NCBI GenBank assembly: GCA_029266475.1
Contig: JAQSWU010000002.1
Location: 2,852-66,851 of the forward strand
Direction: 5' to 3'
DNA from: Rickettsiaceae bacterium
Lineage (GTDB): Bacteria; Pseudomonadota; Alphaproteobacteria; Rickettsiales; Rickettsiaceae
Length of the DNA stretch: 64,000 nucleotides
The translations under genes and the position numbers were made by a program. The notes beneath the pieces were generated by a model. The model had not been told where the DNA came from and searched no databases. It saw nothing but the letters and a program-made list of their open reading frames with translations. Below are positions 11,641 to 15,968 of the stretch, piece after piece; the first letter of the stretch is position 1, and every line of letters begins with the position of its first letter.

Positions 11641-12266
11641 AATTCGCTTTCCTTCATTTGTTTCCTTGTACTCTTTTTAGCGCCAAATGTAAGTTTTGTT
11701 TCACTAAGATCTCCTCAAGTAATCTTTCTGGTATAGACTGGATTTCGATTTATTGTTTTGCTATGGTTTTACTCATCCCTTGTACAAATACGCCTCGAGC
11801 TTCACTCTTAACCTCATTGGTAAAGGCTGCTTTATTCACAGTTTTCTGATGTGTTACGTTTTCCATGAAATTCAACTCTTATTATCCATTTCCACTGTTC
11901 AGGCTTCCTTACTTTCATAAGTACTATGCCCTCTGCTGACTTCTGTGATGCCATAGAGTGCCTTACAACACTCCTTGTCCTTTAAACAGCAACACAAATC
12001 TCCCAAGGTAAGACTTATCGCCTTCGTCGCACTACTGCTAGGTTTATATGAATGCCTCTTGATGGAAATGGACTTCGTGGTCACCAGTCCGCTCGTCCAG
12101 GCATTCATGCCTGATATCTAGTTTCTGTTCGTCAGCACACGATTTTGATTCCCACTTCCTTCAGACCCTACTTCACAGTAACGCCCTTGTGGCTCACTAA
12201 CCCTTCACCTCCATCAGGTTGGGTAGAGGACTTTCACCTCTAAGCTATAAGCCATGCTTGGCACAC
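11641..12266 (-). mobile_element. Group II intron, 5' fragment (5' end, domain I onward, first codons of the intron-encoded protein); 3'-truncated
   Basis: The minus strand starts GUGUGCCAAGCAUGG at 12266 (GUGYG consensus). The segment is locally GC-richer and looks structured. It ends in an IEP N-terminal remnant, IPERLLEEILVKQNLHLALKRVQGNK (RT domain 0 motif), broken by stops. Similarity stops next to the stop codon of the HTH gene at 11640. Confidence 0.75.
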
Positions 12267-12640
12267 CGGTAATTGGTTCGACAGTGTCGAACCAGTTCCT
12301 AACTCAGGAAAGGTATTATAAAACTGAACCATTCGGATTACAGCGACTCATGAGAAACCTTTACCATATTCGGCAGTAAGCACATTAGCTAAAGATTTAA
12401 TAACTTCTTCACCATATTCTGCTTTTTTACTTTAAATAATATCTTCTCTAATCCTTTTTCCTATATGCCAATAAAGTAGTGTCATTTCTGAGTTAAGTAT
12501 TTTACTAACTCGAATCTTTGTACTAAAGATTAATTGACGAATGTCATTTATTAGAGATTTTTGAGATTCATTACTTAATTGCGAGCTAGATTCTAGGGAA
12601 TTTTTTATATTAGTTTCTAATCAGCATCCGTTGATAAAAT
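12267..12640 (-). pseudogene. DUF1016 / YhcG-like PD-(D/E)xK nuclease, N-terminal fragment, with in-frame stops and interrupted by the intron
   Basis: The minus-strand translation is SLINDIRQLIFSTKIRVSKILNSEMTLLYWHIGKRIREDII*SKKAEYGEEVIKSLANVLTAEYGKGFS*VAVIRMVQFYNTFPELGTGSTLSNQLP, then the intron 5' end. It parallels the N-terminus of the intact paralog at 25197-26255 (VNIELVHLYWHIGSEIL...). Confidence 0.6.
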
Positions 12641-12863
12641 TAGCAAACCTAATACCGTGGGAGGAGATGTATCAGATAGTACTTGACTTAATAACTACTA
12701 TCACAAAAGCAGTAAACATACTTATTATCCTATTGGCTAGCACAATTATTTGTTTGCAGTTTAAACTACACGTTATAGAGTAAAGTATGAAAAATATTAT
12801 TGCTTTAAAATATTGTGTAATACATTATAAAGTAATAATTATTAATATAGTAAACTGACAAAA

Positions 12864-13802
12864 ATGAAAGTTGCTTTTGTAACATATAAAAGTTTTTACA
12901 CAGAAAATAAGAGCACTCGGTACGCTTCAAGAGAGTGTTTAGGGTTAACTAGGTCTGACAATAAAGTACGGTTATTTCTAAAGAAAAACAATATTGATTG
13001 TGAGCCATTCTCTTGGGATGATCAGTGTTGCGATATAAATAATTATGACATGTTTATAATTCGCTCTGCATGGAATTATTACCATTCCGACAAAAATTTT
13101 AAAGCCTTCATGAAATTTATCAAAACGATAGAGTCAAGAGTATATAACTATACTGACACCATCAGATGGAATGCACATAAAAGTTATCTTTACGATCTAA
13201 AAAGTAAGGGCATACCTACAGTTCCCACTTTATTCATCCCAGATATGAATAGCTTTAATAGTGAAAGTATCTTACACTTTATAGGTAGTGAAGAATATGT
13301 CATAATCAAGCCATGCATTTCTGGAGCAGGACGTAATTCTTATTGTTTACCCCTTTCGAGTATACGTTACACATCAATCGATAATATTAAGAGTAAACTG
13401 TCCTCTGAAGGCATAACTGAAATTATAGTGCAGCCTTTTATTAAGCCAATTTTATATAAAGGAGAATTATCAATAATATTCTTTCGGGATAAGCTCTCTC
13501 ACGCCGTTAGAAAGCTACCCAAAGAAACTGATATTTTTAAGCACTATAAAACTTTTTTAGCAAGACAGGTTCCTAAAGAAGCGCTAATGATAGCTGAAGA
13601 GTCCCTTTTAGCCTCCTATGAGGTTTTAGGCTTAAAGAGAGGCTCACATTTATTTGCACGAGTTGATTTGATACCCGATAATAAGAATAAATATCTTTTA
13701 TCCGAACTAGAATTGATTGAACCAGACTTATTCCTACAATATCATAAAGAAAGTATAGAAACTTTCGGAACTCAAATTTTAAATACTATCATTAAACCTT
13801 AA
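12864..13802 (+). CDS. ATP-grasp family ligase (RimK / glutathione-synthetase-like fold)
   Basis: The layout is typical of ATP-grasp enzymes: a pre-ATP-grasp region (FIIRSAWNYY), KSYLYDLKSKGIPTVPT, YVIIKPCISGAGRNSY, IIVQPFI, GELSIIFF, and ARVDLIPD...LSELELIEPDLFL. Confidence 0.7.
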   Translation: MKVAFVTYKSFYTENKSTRYASRECLGLTRSDNKVRLFLKKNNIDCEPFSWDDQCCDINNYDMFIIRSAWNYYHSDKNFKAFMKFIKTIESRVYNYTDTIRWNAHKSYLYDLKSKGIPTVPTLFIPDMNSFNSESILHFIGSEEYVIIKPCISGAGRNSYCLPLSSIRYTSIDNIKSKLSSEGITEIIVQPFIKPILYKGELSIIFFRDKLSHAVRKLPKETDIFKHYKTFLARQVPKEALMIAEESLLASYEVLGLKRGSHLFARVDLIPDNKNKYLLSELELIEPDLFLQYHKESIETFGTQILNTIIKP

Positions 13803-14026
13803 AATAGTAAGAAAGTTGCCTATAGTGCATGAGTATATAGAGGAAAATAATGCTAACTTATATTGAACCTCTTAAGACATTGATTCAGAATTTCTAATGA
13901 ATTTAATAAAATAAGATTCAGTAATTTAAGAAACAGATTAAATATTTTACTGAAATATTTTAGAAACCTTTACAAGCTCCTCTATAATAGTTATAGTTTT
14001 ATTATAAAATCAGTATTGGTTAATGA

Positions 14027-15142
14027 ATGTATAAAAGTCTCCGGAGACATACTCAAAAGCTTATATTAAAAAGCATTAAAGCACATCTAACTGCAGAACG
14101 GGAATATATACCTTTATTATGTAAAACTTTCTTCTATCCTACAAAGAGTGTTTCAGGTATATCCTTTGGAGAGTTCTTTAGAGATATAAATCTTGAAAAA
14201 AGAGTTACTAAGGATTTTTTAATACCAAAATATAATGAAATATTACAGCGCTACAAAAAATTAGACCCTTCAATTAAGCTTGAGGGATGGCCCAAACATT
14301 ATGCTATAAAACTTAATCTAATACATGGGGTGCTTGCTAATGGAAAAAATATTATTTTATCCTTCCCTGGTGCTCTAGGAATTCAAAGCAAAAAAATGGA
14401 AGATTATTTTAGTTTTGAGCTCATAGATATTTGGAGCAAGATTTTCCGTACTATTATTTTCCCTTGCATGGATCGTGCTTTTACCCTTGAAACGAAAGAG
14501 AAAATTAAACAAATCTTTTGCAAAGATAAAGATATAGAGTACATTAGCTATCTTACTTCTATTTTCCATGAGGTAGGCCACCATGTTGGGCCTTGGCGAA
14601 TTTTTCCTAGGTGGAATACTAATAAAAGGATAAGTAAATTTCAGCATAGTATTTTAACTGAGCTTGCAACAGATTCATTATTGGTAGATAGGCTCTATGA
14701 TTTTGAAGAGATAATCCTATGTGTATTCTTGCAGCGATTATTCTGGTTCGGACGTGATGGTTTTGATAGTGACGAAAGGTGCGGTAATGTTAATAAAGAT
14801 AATGATTGCTGGATTGGATCTTATTTATGGGAAAAGTATACAGAGAGCGGCTGTATAAAGAACACCGAAAGAGGGCTGGAGGTTAATATTGAGAGAATAC
14901 CTCAAACTTTTCAAGTAATTTGTAGCGAGATAAATCTTCTAGCAGCAGAACTAGAGAGGGCTAACTTTAGCCACCATATAAGTATTGTACAAAGATGGAT
15001 GAATAGAAACTTACGTCATGATAAAGAAGGTTTTCTACTCCCAGAAGGATTTATAGAGGTCCTATTAAAGTGTAGAGAAATTCCTTATAGTGTGCTTAGC
15101 AAAAGTAATGACGTTTCTCAGCGTGGTCCCTCGATAGAGTAA
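14027..15142 (+). CDS. Putative gluzincin-type zinc metallopeptidase (HExxH + ExxxD), otherwise uncharacterised
   Basis: IFHEVGHHVG, then LTELATDS 22 residues after the second His. This arrangement resembles the thermolysin-like HExxH...ExxxD motif. I recognise no other domain. Confidence 0.6.
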   Translation: MYKSLRRHTQKLILKSIKAHLTAEREYIPLLCKTFFYPTKSVSGISFGEFFRDINLEKRVTKDFLIPKYNEILQRYKKLDPSIKLEGWPKHYAIKLNLIHGVLANGKNIILSFPGALGIQSKKMEDYFSFELIDIWSKIFRTIIFPCMDRAFTLETKEKIKQIFCKDKDIEYISYLTSIFHEVGHHVGPWRIFPRWNTNKRISKFQHSILTELATDSLLVDRLYDFEEIILCVFLQRLFWFGRDGFDSDERCGNVNKDNDCWIGSYLWEKYTESGCIKNTERGLEVNIERIPQTFQVICSEINLLAAELERANFSHHISIVQRWMNRNLRHDKEGFLLPEGFIEVLLKCREIPYSVLSKSNDVSQRGPSIE

Positions 15143-15152
15143 CTAACCCGAG

Positions 15153-15429
15153 CTATGGATAATGAATTGTTGGTTTACTGGGTTTAATTTGGTACGCGAT
15201 TAGTGCTGCTGGGAGTGACACGAAGAAATTCGTTGGAGACCTATGTTTATTGGGTCTTATATTAAATTGCTCTTCAATATAGCCGAATATTGTTTTAATA
15301 ATGAACCGTTTTTTATGCAATATTTTATCTAAATTAGGCACCAAGTAATTTTTCATATTGCGTTTTATGCCAGTAATTAGTGTAAGGCCTTTATGATAGA
15401 GCCTGGTAAACAGGTCTTTTGAAAGGTAA
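15153..15429 (-). pseudogene. IS982-family transposase, C-terminal fragment (3' exon of the intron fragment)
   Basis: YLSKDLFTRLYHKGLTLITGIKRNMKNYLVPNLDKILHKKRFIIKTIFGYIEEQFNIRPNKHRSPTNFFVSL..LIAYQIKPSKP matches the IS982 C-terminus (GDKGYIS..LF..L...GI.LIT..RKNMKN...D..LL.KR..IETVF...K......HSRHRSP.NF......IAY...PKKP). The upstream two-thirds of the gene is absent. Confidence 0.65.
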
Positions 15430-15968
15430 GTAGACCTGAGGAATTTCACCTCAAGCCCCTATCAGAACCGTACGTGAACCTCTCGACTCATACTGCTCCC
15501 ATTATCTAACCGTTAGGAGCATATCCTATCTTCCAGTGGAAGAACAATCCTGGTAATCTTTGAGCTATTTTAACAAGGTATTGATATGCTTTTACCCTAT
15601 GCCTTTGGTATCTTTTGTATTTTCTCATAACCCATCGGCTTAGATAGTAATTTGCATTTCTCCATACCCATTTCAGAGTGGTCTTGTAGAATTTAGCATA
15701 ATATTGATACCAACCTTTAATGATTGGATTTATATATTGCGCTATCTCCTCTATATTCCGCTCATTACGGAAAGGTAGATTCCATCTCCTAATTCGGAAC
15801 TTCATATCTTTAATCGCTGCTTTACTGGCTCCAGCACTAAAGTTCATATATTTCTGGCCCTTTCCATTTCTCGCTTTTCCAAGGCAAAAATCATACCCTA
15901 AAAAGGTGAATGAGGTCCTGTCATATTTTCTATTGTGTCTCCCATATTTGCAGTAAACTATATGAGTT
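15430..15968 (-). mobile_element. Group II intron, 3' fragment (C-terminal RT/maturase ORF, domains V and VI); 5'-truncated
   Basis: The IEP remnant reads KTHIVYCKYGR..FTFLGYDF (end of RT), then INPIIKGWYQYYAKFY, RWVMRKYKR and LFFHWKIG (X/maturase), with its stop at 15506. Domain V is 34 nt, GAGCAGUAUGAGUCGAGAGGUUCACGUACGGUUC (15498-15465). It has the AGC triad, a consensus 3' half and one A.G mismatch. Domain VI is a hairpin with an A 8 nt from the 3' end. The last intron nt is 15430. Confidence 0.8.

What the first reader, a model, noticed from the sequence alone, without database searches (positions are those of the whole stretch)
11641..15968. Two order-swapped group II intron fragments, in different host genes, bracket an intact two-gene cargo
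**What the minus strand shows, read 5' to 3'**
- First comes a 3' intron part at 15968-15430 (RT end, X domain, domain V, domain VI). It abuts an IS982 transposase C-terminal fragment as its 3' exon.
- Next come the ATP-grasp and metallopeptidase genes, on the opposite strand.
- Then comes a DUF1016 pseudogene acting as the 5' exon.
- Last comes a 5' intron part at 12266-11641 (GUGUG start through the first IEP codons).

**What is odd about it**
- The 3' part precedes the 5' part, so the two pieces are not one intron split by an insertion.
- The exons belong to unrelated genes.
- The outer breakpoints abut an IS5 fragment (15969) and the HigA-like gene (11640).
- About 750 bp of RT coding sequence is missing from both pieces.

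**Two possible explanations**
- Two independent intron copies were each truncated by separate deletions.
- A circular intermediate or recombination product was opened inside the intron ORF, which would make the cargo an intron-delimited translocatable unit.
Basis: partly seen in the sequence, partly recalled or inferred. Interest (0 to 1): 0.65.

Follow-up and report, generated by a model that had tools for sequence, protein, structure and literature searches.

The report
Two unrelated group II intron relics
The two intron pieces flanking the two intact genes are real, but they are dead remnants of two different kinds of group II intron (class C and class D-like), so this is ordinary mobile-element debris on an endosymbiont-type plasmid, not a split intron or an intron-bounded mobile unit.

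Summary
On the minus strand, Rfam finds domain I-IV RNA at 12182-11902 and domain V/VI at 15500-15424. The first piece starts with GTGTG at 12266, after a DUF1016 pseudogene. The second ends in an IS982 transposase remnant. An independent assembly from another sample reproduces all junctions at 100% identity.

- **5' piece: class C (IIC).** It is about 74% identical in domain I to rhizobial introns, one of which encodes a GsI-IIC-RT-like protein (505 bits). It sits 7 nt downstream of a 9-bp hairpin, the IIC target signature.
- **3' piece: class D-like.** Its protein tail, LVKIAQRLPGLFFHW, fits the class D motif. It is 65-72% identical to introns of Cardinium and Anadelfobacter. The Cardinium intron occupies the same DKGY site of an IS982 transposase.
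- **No cross-match.** Every full-length relative of the 3' piece has a different 5' RNA family (RF01999), and BLASTN finds no similarity between the two groups.

Each relic lacks about 1.3 kb of its own intron, and both outer ends are deletion junctions. Distant homologues of the HExxH protein lie in other contexts without called intron genes. The best explanation is two independent insertions followed by separate truncations. Interest is low.

The parts
11341..11640 (+). Intact 99-aa HTH antitoxin-like gene (MqsA/HigA-type). Its stop codon abuts the broken end of the IIC relic.
   Evidence: Pfam HTH_3 and NCBIfam TIGR03830 MqsA-family match, E 7e-10. Its last 80 bp plus 4 bp are duplicated at 22470-22553.
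11645..12266 (-). 5' relic of a class C (IIC) group II intron. It runs from the GTGTG start through domains I-III into domain IV, including the decayed first ~40 codons of the intron protein (IEIQSIPERLLEEILVKQNLHLALKRVQGNK*).
   Evidence: RF02001 at 117.6 bits and RF01998 at 55.2 bits. About 74% nt identity over intron nt 1-267 to rhizobial introns L008 and L009. The N-terminal peptide is 43-46% identical to their proteins (E about 1e-5). L009's protein matches GsI-IIC RT at 505 bits.
12274..12294 (-). Perfect 9-bp hairpin (TGGTTCGAC ACT GTCGAACCA) ending 7 nt upstream of the intron insertion site. This is the IIC-type DNA target motif, here lying inside the DUF1016 coding sequence.
   Evidence: DNA fold. 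The three relatives L003, L008 and L009 each have a 5-bp GC-rich hairpin plus a 6-nt spacer at the same place. Only about 19 distinct perfect hairpins of 8 bp or more occur in the 64-kb window.
12267..12620 (-). DUF1016 (YhcG-family) N-terminal pseudogene with two in-frame stops. It is the 5' flank of the IIC relic and ends at ...TLSNQLP, where intact relatives read ...TLSxQL(T/S)WSH.
   Evidence: PF17761 at 84 bits, profile positions 1-93 of 137. tblastn against the intact copy at 25197-26255 gives only 25% identity.
12864..13802 (+). Intact ATP-grasp ligase gene, DcsG-like.
   Evidence: NF058666 match E 4e-40, below the family's cut-off; Pfam GSH-S_ATP weak match; PF27100 DcsG_N precomputed.
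14027..15142 (+). Intact 371-aa protein with a conserved HExxH motif (FHEVGH). No family model matches it; it is presumably a metallopeptidase.
   Evidence: No Pfam or NCBIfam hit. Five distant homologues at 33-45% identity share invariant HE.GH, QRLFWF and N.DND.W motifs.
15153..15424 (-). C-terminal third of an IS982-family transposase gene. It is the 3' exon of the class D-like relic; the upstream two-thirds of the transposase gene are absent.
   Evidence: NF033520 positions 160-242 of 243 and PF13612. Best plasmid match is Rickettsia monacensis pRM at 67.5%. The Cardinium intron L012 interrupts an IS982-like ORF at the same ADKGY|LSKELF position.
15425..15975 (-). 3' relic of a class D-like (IIB-type, endonuclease-less) group II intron. 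It contains RT domain 7 plus the X/maturase domain (open frame 15973-15506), domain V (15498-15465) and domain VI with bulged A at 15431, up to the 3' splice site near 15425.
   Evidence: RF00029 at 43.9 bits, PF08388 and TIGR04416. Identity is 65% aa / 72% nt to Cardinium L012 and 72% aa / 74% nt to Anadelfobacter L033. The tail LVKIAQRLPGLFFHW fits the class D motif LX3AX3PXLF[V/A]HW (PMC4615759).
15976..16307 (+). C-terminal remnant of an IS5-family transposase gene. It is fused by its interior to the interior of the intron ORF, which marks a deletion junction somewhere in 15974-15993.
   Evidence: NF033578 positions 327-418 of 419, with the match starting by window position 15993. Intron homology is lost upstream of about 15975 in the alignment with L012, L013 and L033.
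22470..22553 (+). Orphan 84-bp duplicate (95% identical) of the 3' end of the antitoxin-like gene. It is a second recombination scar on the same plasmid and fixes the left junction at 11644/11645.
   Evidence: Self-BLASTN and alignment.

Best explanation
The region 11.3-16.3 kb of this conjugative, endosymbiont-type plasmid is a patch of decayed mobile elements around two intact genes. Two different group II introns arrived independently and are now dead.

1. A class C (IIC) intron inserted 7 nt downstream of a DNA hairpin that happens to lie inside a DUF1016 gene. A later deletion removed its 3' ~1.3 kb (most of the protein gene, plus domains V and VI) and the rest of DUF1016. That deletion fused intron position ~622 to the 3' end of an antitoxin-like gene.
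2. A class D-like intron retrohomed into its usual site, the DKGY codons of an IS982 transposase gene. That IS982 copy sits just downstream of the HExxH gene. A later deletion removed the intron's first ~1.3 kb and the upstream two-thirds of IS982, and fused the intron ORF to the interior of an IS5-family transposase gene.

Neither relic can splice or move. The 'swapped order' is a coincidence of two unrelated relics lying on the same strand on either side of the ATP-grasp/HExxH pair.

What is shown: the identity and class of each piece, its insertion-site type and the junction positions. What is inferred: the order and mechanism of the deletions.
For: **The pieces are real:** Rfam hits, Pfam and NCBIfam hits, and an independent assembly that is 100% identical across all junctions.

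**Different lineages**
- The 5' piece and its relatives L003, L008 and L009 carry RF02001 plus RF01998 and no gathering-level RF00029.
- Full-length relatives of the 3' piece (L004-L007, L012, L014, L017, L033, L035, L049) carry RF01999 plus RF00029. L013 and L037, which lack an intact 5' half, show RF00029 only.
- BLASTN finds no cross-similarity between the two groups.
- The RT-end peptide is 65% identical to the Cardinium protein and 35-42% to other class D-type proteins, but only 21% (E 0.012) to the IIC-type proteins. The N-terminal peptide of the 5' piece matches only the IIC-type proteins.
- The reference proteins form two clusters: 48-59% identity within the class D-type cluster and about 30% between clusters.

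**Class anchors**
- L009's protein versus GsI-IIC RT gives 505 bits, E 1e-150. The Cardinium protein gives only 161 bits against the same structure.
- The S. meliloti 419-aa protein (L049) matches the size that PMC4615759 gives for RmInt1, RmInt2 and Sr.md.I1, which PMC4615759 and PMC5894124 place in class D.
- The class D C-tail motif is present in the window (PMC4615759).

**Insertion-site logic**
- A hairpin plus a 6-7 nt spacer lies upstream of the window's 5' piece and of its three relatives. PMC4424553 describes this IIC behaviour.
- The Cardinium intron occupies the same DKGY site in an IS982-like gene.

**No other intron parts in the window:**

**Precedent:** persistent intron fragments are common in bacterial genomes and plasmids, including FRE652, a 652-nt 5' relic of an RmInt1-like intron (PMC5894124, PMC3522654).
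Against: - No near-identical (>90%) full-length copy of either intron was recovered. Class assignment therefore rests on relatives at about 74% nt (5' piece) and 65-72% aa (3' piece).
- The 31-aa N-terminal peptide alone is weak evidence (E 1.3 against GsI-IIC RT in a PDB-wide search).
- I could not identify a convincing EBS1/IBS1 pairing for the IIC relic.
- The class D motif has F where the published motif has V or A.
- The 154-codon RT frame is still open in an AT-rich genome and the RNA scores are close to those of intact relatives. The truncations may therefore be recent, but that does not favour any alternative.
- The deletion mechanisms and their order are inferred, not observed.
Confidence: 0.9

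Rival explanations
1. One reading: one intron was split. A circular or recombinant intermediate carrying the two genes was opened inside the intron ORF, so the two pieces are the permuted halves of a single element and the cargo is an intron-delimited translocatable unit.
For: - Both pieces lie on the same strand, with the 3' part ahead of the 5' part.
- Read as one intron, the 5' piece stops near protein codon 40 and the 3' piece starts near codon 258. The pieces would then be non-overlapping and nearly complementary.
Against: - The halves belong to different classes, IIC versus class D-like, by RNA family, by protein and by target-site type.
- Joining 11645 to 15975 would create a chimera that no known intron resembles, still lacking about 650 nt of RT.
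- Distant homologues of the HExxH protein sit in other genomic contexts. One has an ATP-grasp gene and an EamA gene beside it. None has an intron or IS gene called nearby.
Confidence: 0.02
2. Two copies of the same intron family were truncated independently.
For: The general scenario is correct: independent insertions into different targets, followed by separate deletions.
Against: The fragments are not from one family. There is no nucleotide cross-similarity to each other's full-length relatives. The 5'-half Rfam families differ. Identity between the two protein clusters is about 21-30%.
Confidence: 0.04
3. The relics are retained because they now act in cis, as proposed for the RmInt1-like fragment FRE652. 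They might supply a promoter, a terminator or an RNA element to neighbouring genes, or provide portable homology for recombination with intact intron copies elsewhere in the host genome.
For: - RNA scores are close to those of intact relatives: 117.6 versus 129-138 bits for RF02001, and 43.9 versus 44.6-60 bits for RF00029.
- The plasmid is identical in two samples.
- The Logan assembly breaks inside domain V at 15486-15489. This hints that other intron copies share that k-mer in the sample.
- PMC5894124 raises this idea for FRE652.
Against: - No comparative evidence of conservation beyond one plasmid clone.
- The 5' relic's protein start is already decayed.
- Nothing links either relic to expression of the neighbouring genes, which are on the opposite strand.
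- Not testable with the data in hand.
Confidence: 0.04

Closest known systems
Class C (IIC) bacterial group II introns, for example GsI-IIC of Geobacillus stearothermophilus, and rhizobial plasmid copies such as the one in Mesorhizobium sp. AR02 pMspAR02c
   Same: - GTGTG 5' end.
- Domain I-IV RNA of the same Rfam types (RF02001, RF01998).
- About 74% nt identity over the first 267 nt to the rhizobial copies.
- The protein N-terminus follows the LLExIL..NL..ALKRV..N pattern.
- Insertion a few nucleotides downstream of a DNA stem-loop.
   Different: - Only the first ~622 nt survive. There is no RT, no domain V/VI and no activity.
- The hairpin used lies inside a coding sequence (DUF1016), not at a transcription terminator or attC site.
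- The host is an AT-rich endosymbiont-type plasmid.
Class D (IIB3) introns of the RmInt1 / RmInt2 / Sr.md.I1 type, and their unnamed relatives in Cardinium sp. TP, Wolbachia wTex and Candidatus Anadelfobacter sociabilis
   Same: - Endonuclease-less protein that ends just before domain V.
- C-terminal class D motif.
- Domain V/VI matched by RF00029.
- Homing into a transposase gene of an insertion sequence, at the same DKGY site of IS982 as the Cardinium copy.
   Different: - Only the last ~550 nt survive.
- Just 35% aa identity to the S. meliloti protein over this region, so it belongs to a divergent endosymbiont-associated branch.
- The motif has F where V or A is published.
FRE652 and other persistent group II intron fragments (Toro et al.; Leclercq and Cordaux)
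   Same: - A ~0.6-kb 5' relic covering domains I-III and part of domain IV.
- Truncated inside the ORF region, carried on a plasmid and next to an HTH regulator gene.
- Fragments are a normal end-stage of intron decay.
   Different: - Different intron class (IIC rather than D).
- No evidence here of long-term conservation across species.

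Membership tests
Group II intron, class C (IIC): 5' piece | Canonical 5' end (GUGYG) followed by domain I-IV RNA of the family | tested here: met
   GTGTG at 12266. RF02001 at 117.6 bits and RF01998 at 55.2 bits, both full-length model matches. The alignment with three relatives shows compensatory stem changes.
Group II intron, class C (IIC): 5' piece | Intron-encoded protein belongs to the class C clade | tested here: inconclusive
   Only about 31 decayed codons remain. They match the N-termini of the L003 and L009 proteins (43-46%, E about 1e-5). L009's protein is GsI-IIC-RT-like (505 bits). The direct match of the peptide to GsI-IIC RT is weak (E 1.3).
Group II intron, class C (IIC): 5' piece | Inserts just downstream of a DNA stem-loop (terminator or attC-like motif) rather than in a long sequence-specific homing site (PMC4424553) | tested here: met
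   A 9-bp perfect hairpin ends 7 nt upstream. The three relatives have a hairpin plus a 6-nt spacer. By my estimate from the ~19 such hairpins counted in 64 kb, the chance of a hairpin this close to a given site is about 0.002.
Group II intron, class C (IIC): 5' piece | Complete ribozyme (domains V and VI) and RT/maturase gene | tested here: not met
   The sequence ends at about 11645 against the antitoxin-like gene. There is no further intron RNA or RT on either strand of the window. It is a relic, not a functional member.
Group II intron, class D (IIB3-type): 3' piece | C-terminal class D motif LX3AX3PXLF[V/A]HW and no DNA-binding or endonuclease domain (PMC4615759) | tested here: met
   The tail reads LVKIAQRLPGLFFHW, with one substitution (F for V/A). 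The ORF stops at 15506, 7 nt before domain V.
Group II intron, class D (IIB3-type): 3' piece | Protein clusters with class D proteins rather than other classes | tested here: met
   Identity is 65% to Cardinium L012, 42% to L004 and L006, and 35% to the S. meliloti 419-aa protein L049, against 21% (E 0.012) to IIC-type proteins. No formal phylogeny with all classes (E, F, g1-g6) was made, so 'class D-like' is the safe wording.
Group II intron, class D (IIB3-type): 3' piece | Domain V/VI of standard type, with the branch-point A about 7-8 nt from the 3' splice site | tested here: met
   RF00029 at 43.9 bits. With the splice site at 15425, set by homology with L012 and L033, the bulged A at 15431 is at position -7.
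Group II intron, class D (IIB3-type): 3' piece | 5' half of the matching RNA type (RF01999 in all full-length relatives) | tested here: not met
   No RF01999 match anywhere in the window. The only 5' half present is of the RF02001/RF01998 type. All full-length relatives examined carry RF01999.
   (see above).
   Only distant homologues of the HExxH protein (33-45%) were found. In their contigs no intron or IS gene is called nearby, and one lies beside an ATP-grasp gene and an EamA gene. Two independent assemblies show only the one arrangement. Read-level data could not be examined.

The most novel reading that the evidence does not exclude
The two relics are not inert. As portable stretches of homology to intact IIC and class D-like introns elsewhere in the host genome or on co-resident replicons, they could let the ATP-grasp/HExxH gene pair be exchanged between replicons by homologous recombination. 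Alternatively, they could be retained as cis-acting RNA or DNA elements, as proposed for FRE652. The break of the second assembly exactly inside domain V hints that other copies sharing that sequence exist in the sample.
Probability: 0.04. Interest if true: 0.4.

Novelty: new member of a known kind. Interest (0 to 1): 0.12.

Why it matters
It matters little beyond correct annotation. The result removes a tempting but wrong reading (a permuted intron carrying cargo) and gives a worked way to tell such cases apart, by checking RNA subfamily, protein clade and target-site type for each fragment.

Two minor points may be useful.
- A class D-like intron lineage that homes into the DKGY site of IS982 transposases is shared by very distant intracellular bacteria: Cardinium (a Bacteroidota endosymbiont, from my own knowledge of its taxonomy), Wolbachia, the rickettsial Candidatus Anadelfobacter, and this plasmid. 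This fits exchange of mobile DNA among endosymbionts.
- A IIC intron can use a fortuitous hairpin inside a coding sequence as its target.

Tried and rejected
- **Near-identical plasmids:** megablast of 11000-16500 against PLSDB gave only short Bradyrhizobium intron matches.
- **Word-indexed protein search with the RT end:** it returned only fragments on short contigs, so full-length relatives had to come from PLSDB tblastn and the GTDB genome scan.
- **Metagenome scan with the HExxH protein:** found nothing.
- **Metagenome scan with a 22-mer from the IIC relic:** found one chance match with no further similarity and no Rfam hit. No close full-length copy of the IIC intron was obtained.
- **EBS1/IBS1 pairing for the IIC relic:** a plausible position exists in L008 and L009 (AACT opposite AGTT), but the window and L003 do not fit cleanly. 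I left this open.
- **PDB search with the 154-aa RT end:** no hits.
- **Recurrent intron target in DUF1016:** I checked whether the short DUF1016_N-only proteins among the hits mark such a target. The 104-aa proteins I followed up (P0020 and its near-identical relatives) are ordinary frameshift-split genes in chromosomal contexts.
- **Inversion or circle joining the two outer junctions:** considered and rejected, because neither rearrangement restores any element.

Full report
**Context.** The window is nearly all of a 65.2-kb metagenomic contig, JGI 3300042904 Ga0456370_0000199. Its GC content is about 33%. It carries a MobA/TraA-type relaxase, an F-type coupling protein and a long tra block at 23-52 kb. 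The coupling protein is most similar (36-39%) to those of Rickettsia and Candidatus Megaera plasmids. The replicon is therefore a conjugative plasmid of an intracellular bacterium, but the host was not identified.

**Checking the observation.** An Rfam scan of the whole window gives exactly three matches, all on the minus strand:
- RF02001 (D1D4-3) at 12182-12013, 117.6 bits.
- RF01998 (D1D4-1) at 11977-11902, 55.2 bits.
- RF00029 (domain V/VI) at 15500-15424, 43.9 bits.

The rest of the description also holds.
- The 5' piece begins with GTGTG at 12266.
- Immediately upstream lies a DUF1016_N pseudogene with two in-frame stops (PF17761, 84 bits, profile positions 1-93). It ends at ...TLSNQLP, where intact relatives read ...TLSxQL(T/S)WSH.
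- The 5' piece runs into a decayed start of the intron protein (IEIQSIPERLLEEILVKQNLHLALKRVQGNK*).
- The 3' piece holds a 154-codon open frame, 15970-15506, covering RT domain 7 and the maturase domain. Domains V and VI follow.
- Next comes the C-terminal third of an IS982 transposase gene (NF033520 positions 160-242 of 243).
- Between the two pieces, on the other strand, are an intact DcsG-like ATP-grasp gene and an intact gene with a conserved HExxH motif.
- Outside the pieces are an HTH antitoxin-like gene on the left and an IS5-family transposase remnant on the right.

The arrangement is not an assembly artefact. Contigs from an unrelated Logan assembly (SRR35179664) are 100% identical over 4641-15485 and 15490-25048, so they contain every junction.

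**Coordinate corrections.**
- *3' splice site.* Alignment with the Cardinium and Anadelfobacter introns puts it at 15425/15424, not 15430. This choice restores the reading frame of their exons and places the bulged A (15431) seven nucleotides from the end.
- *Left junction.* It lies at 11644/11645. An 84-bp duplicate of the antitoxin gene's 3' end at 22470-22553 shows where the homology stops.
- *Right junction.* It lies within 15974-15993. Intron homology is lost above about 15975, and the IS5 profile match starts by 15993.

**Are the two pieces halves of one intron? No.** I collected full-length relatives of each piece separately.

*Relatives of the 5' piece.*
- Introns on Sinorhizobium, Mesorhizobium and Bradyrhizobium plasmids are 73-75% identical to it over intron nucleotides 1-272.
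- They carry the same two Rfam families (RF02001 and RF01998) and give no gathering-level RF00029 match.

*Relatives of the 3' piece.*
- The set comprises Undibacterium, Methylocalor, Megaera and Bradyrhizobium plasmids at about 42% aa identity, plus Cardinium sp. TP (65%), Wolbachia wTex (63%) and Candidatus Anadelfobacter sociabilis (72%).
- Every full-length member carries RF01999 (D1D4-2) in the 5' half, plus RF00029.
- RF01999 and RF02001 cover overlapping parts of domain I and belong to one Rfam clan, so they are alternative types rather than parts of a single RNA.

*Direct comparisons.*
- BLASTN of each fragment against all loci finds matches only within its own group.
- At the protein level, the RT end is 65% identical to the Cardinium protein and 35-42% to the rest of that group. 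It is only 21% identical (E 0.012) to the proteins of the other group.
- The 31-residue N-terminal peptide of the 5' piece matches only the other group.
- The reference proteins form two clusters: 48-59% identity within the RF01999 group and about 30% between groups.

**Naming the classes.**

*The 5' piece is class C (IIC).*
- The Mesorhizobium protein, a relative of the 5' piece, matches the crystallised GsI-IIC RT at 505 bits (E 1e-150) over its full length. The Cardinium protein scores only 161 bits against the same structure.
- The target site agrees. A perfect 9-bp hairpin (12274-12294) ends 7 nt upstream of the insertion point. The three rhizobial relatives each have a GC-rich hairpin followed by a 6-nt spacer.
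- Only about 19 distinct hairpins of that quality occur in the whole 64-kb window.
- IIC introns are known to select stem-loop motifs such as terminators and attC sites rather than long homing sequences (PMC4424553). Here the hairpin happens to lie inside the DUF1016 coding sequence, so DUF1016 is an incidental host.

*The 3' piece is class D-like.*
- A Sinorhizobium meliloti intron in its group has a 419-aa protein, the size PMC4615759 gives for RmInt1, RmInt2 and Sr.md.I1. PMC4615759 and PMC5894124 place those introns in class D. It shows the same Rfam pattern.
- The published class D C-terminal motif is LX3AX3PXLF[V/A]HW (PMC4615759). The window reads LVKIAQRLPGLFFHW, with one substitution.
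- The protein ends 7 nt before domain V, so it has no endonuclease domain.
- The full-length Cardinium intron (1,842 nt) interrupts an IS982-like ORF at ...ADKGY|LSKELF.... The window's exon resumes at the same point, (L)SKDLF.... The 3' piece is therefore the remnant of a normal retrohoming event into IS982.

**What is missing and how the ends were made.**
- The IIC relic keeps about 622 nt and lacks roughly 1.3 kb: nearly all of the protein gene plus domains V and VI.
- The class D-like relic keeps about 550 nt and lacks its first ~1.3 kb. It aligns from position 4007 of the Cardinium locus, whose intron starts at 2704.
- No other intron RNA or RT sequence occurs anywhere in the window.
- Both outer ends join the interior of an intron to something unrelated: the 3' end of an antitoxin-like gene on one side and the interior of an IS5 transposase gene on the other.
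- Simple insertion cannot produce such junctions, so they are deletion or illegitimate-recombination junctions. This step is inferred.
- The orphan 84-bp duplicate at 22.5 kb is another such scar on the same plasmid.
- Joining the two outer ends, as a circle model would require, restores nothing.

**The 'cargo'.**
- The HExxH protein has only five detectable homologues, at 33-45% identity.
- Three were followed up. All three lie in other genomic contexts, with no intron or IS gene called nearby.
- In one lineage an ATP-grasp gene and an EamA transporter gene lie directly downstream.
- The enzyme pairing may therefore be functional, but nothing ties it to introns.

**Comparison with what is known.** Decayed intron fragments are a well-documented end-stage of bacterial group II introns and are often found on plasmids and other mobile DNA (PMC3522654, PMC5894124). 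The closest precedent in form is FRE652. It is a 652-nt 5' relic of an RmInt1-like intron, truncated in domain IV and carried on rhizobial plasmids next to an HTH regulator gene (PMC5894124).

**Verdict.** The mundane interpretation of independent truncations is right, with the added point that the two introns are of different classes. The fragments are new members of known kinds, and interest is low.

Noticed in passing
window 11561-11644 and 22470-22553: An 84-bp direct duplicate (95% identical) of the last 25 codons and stop codon of the HTH antitoxin-like gene. The second copy is an orphan fragment just downstream of the RelE/MqsA-like pair at 22580-23234. It is a recombination scar showing that this plasmid has been rearranged more than once.
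   Followed up: partly
L012 (Cardinium sp. TP, 2704-4545), L013 (Wolbachia wTex), L033 (Ca. Anadelfobacter sociabilis, 1308-3045): The closest relatives of the class D-like relic (63-72% aa) are all in intracellular symbionts of very different lineages. The Cardinium copy sits at the same DKGY site of an IS982-like transposase. This suggests an intron-plus-IS982 lineage exchanged among endosymbionts.
   Followed up: partly
window 12864-15142; L053 6001-9154: The HExxH protein (no Pfam or NCBIfam family; invariant FHE.GH, QRLFWF and N.DND.W motifs) has only five detectable homologues. In one distant lineage it is followed directly by an ATP-grasp gene and an EamA transporter gene. This hints at a small conserved enzyme module of unknown product. 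Here its partner is a DcsG-like ATP-grasp gene.
   Followed up: partly
window 15486-15489: The independent Logan assembly of the same plasmid breaks exactly inside domain V of the class D-like relic. The contigs end at 15485 and 15490. This may mean that other intron copies sharing this conserved sequence exist in that sample.
   Followed up: no
window 25197-26255 (-): An intact DUF1016/YhcG PDDEXK-nuclease gene lies directly downstream of traD, and its start overlaps the end of traD by 4 bp. It is only 25% identical to the pseudogene at 12267-12620, so the pseudogene is not a duplicate of it.
   Followed up: partly
window 6643-10734 (+) and 17738-20905 (+): Two large eukaryote-like repeat proteins flank the relic region. 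One is a 1363-aa ankyrin/HEAT-repeat protein. The other is a 1055-aa protein with weak or faint NB-ARC/AAA matches, clear TPR repeats and a faint GerE-type HTH match. A fatty-acid desaturase gene lies at 20984-21874. These are typical effector-like cargo of endosymbiont plasmids.
   Followed up: no
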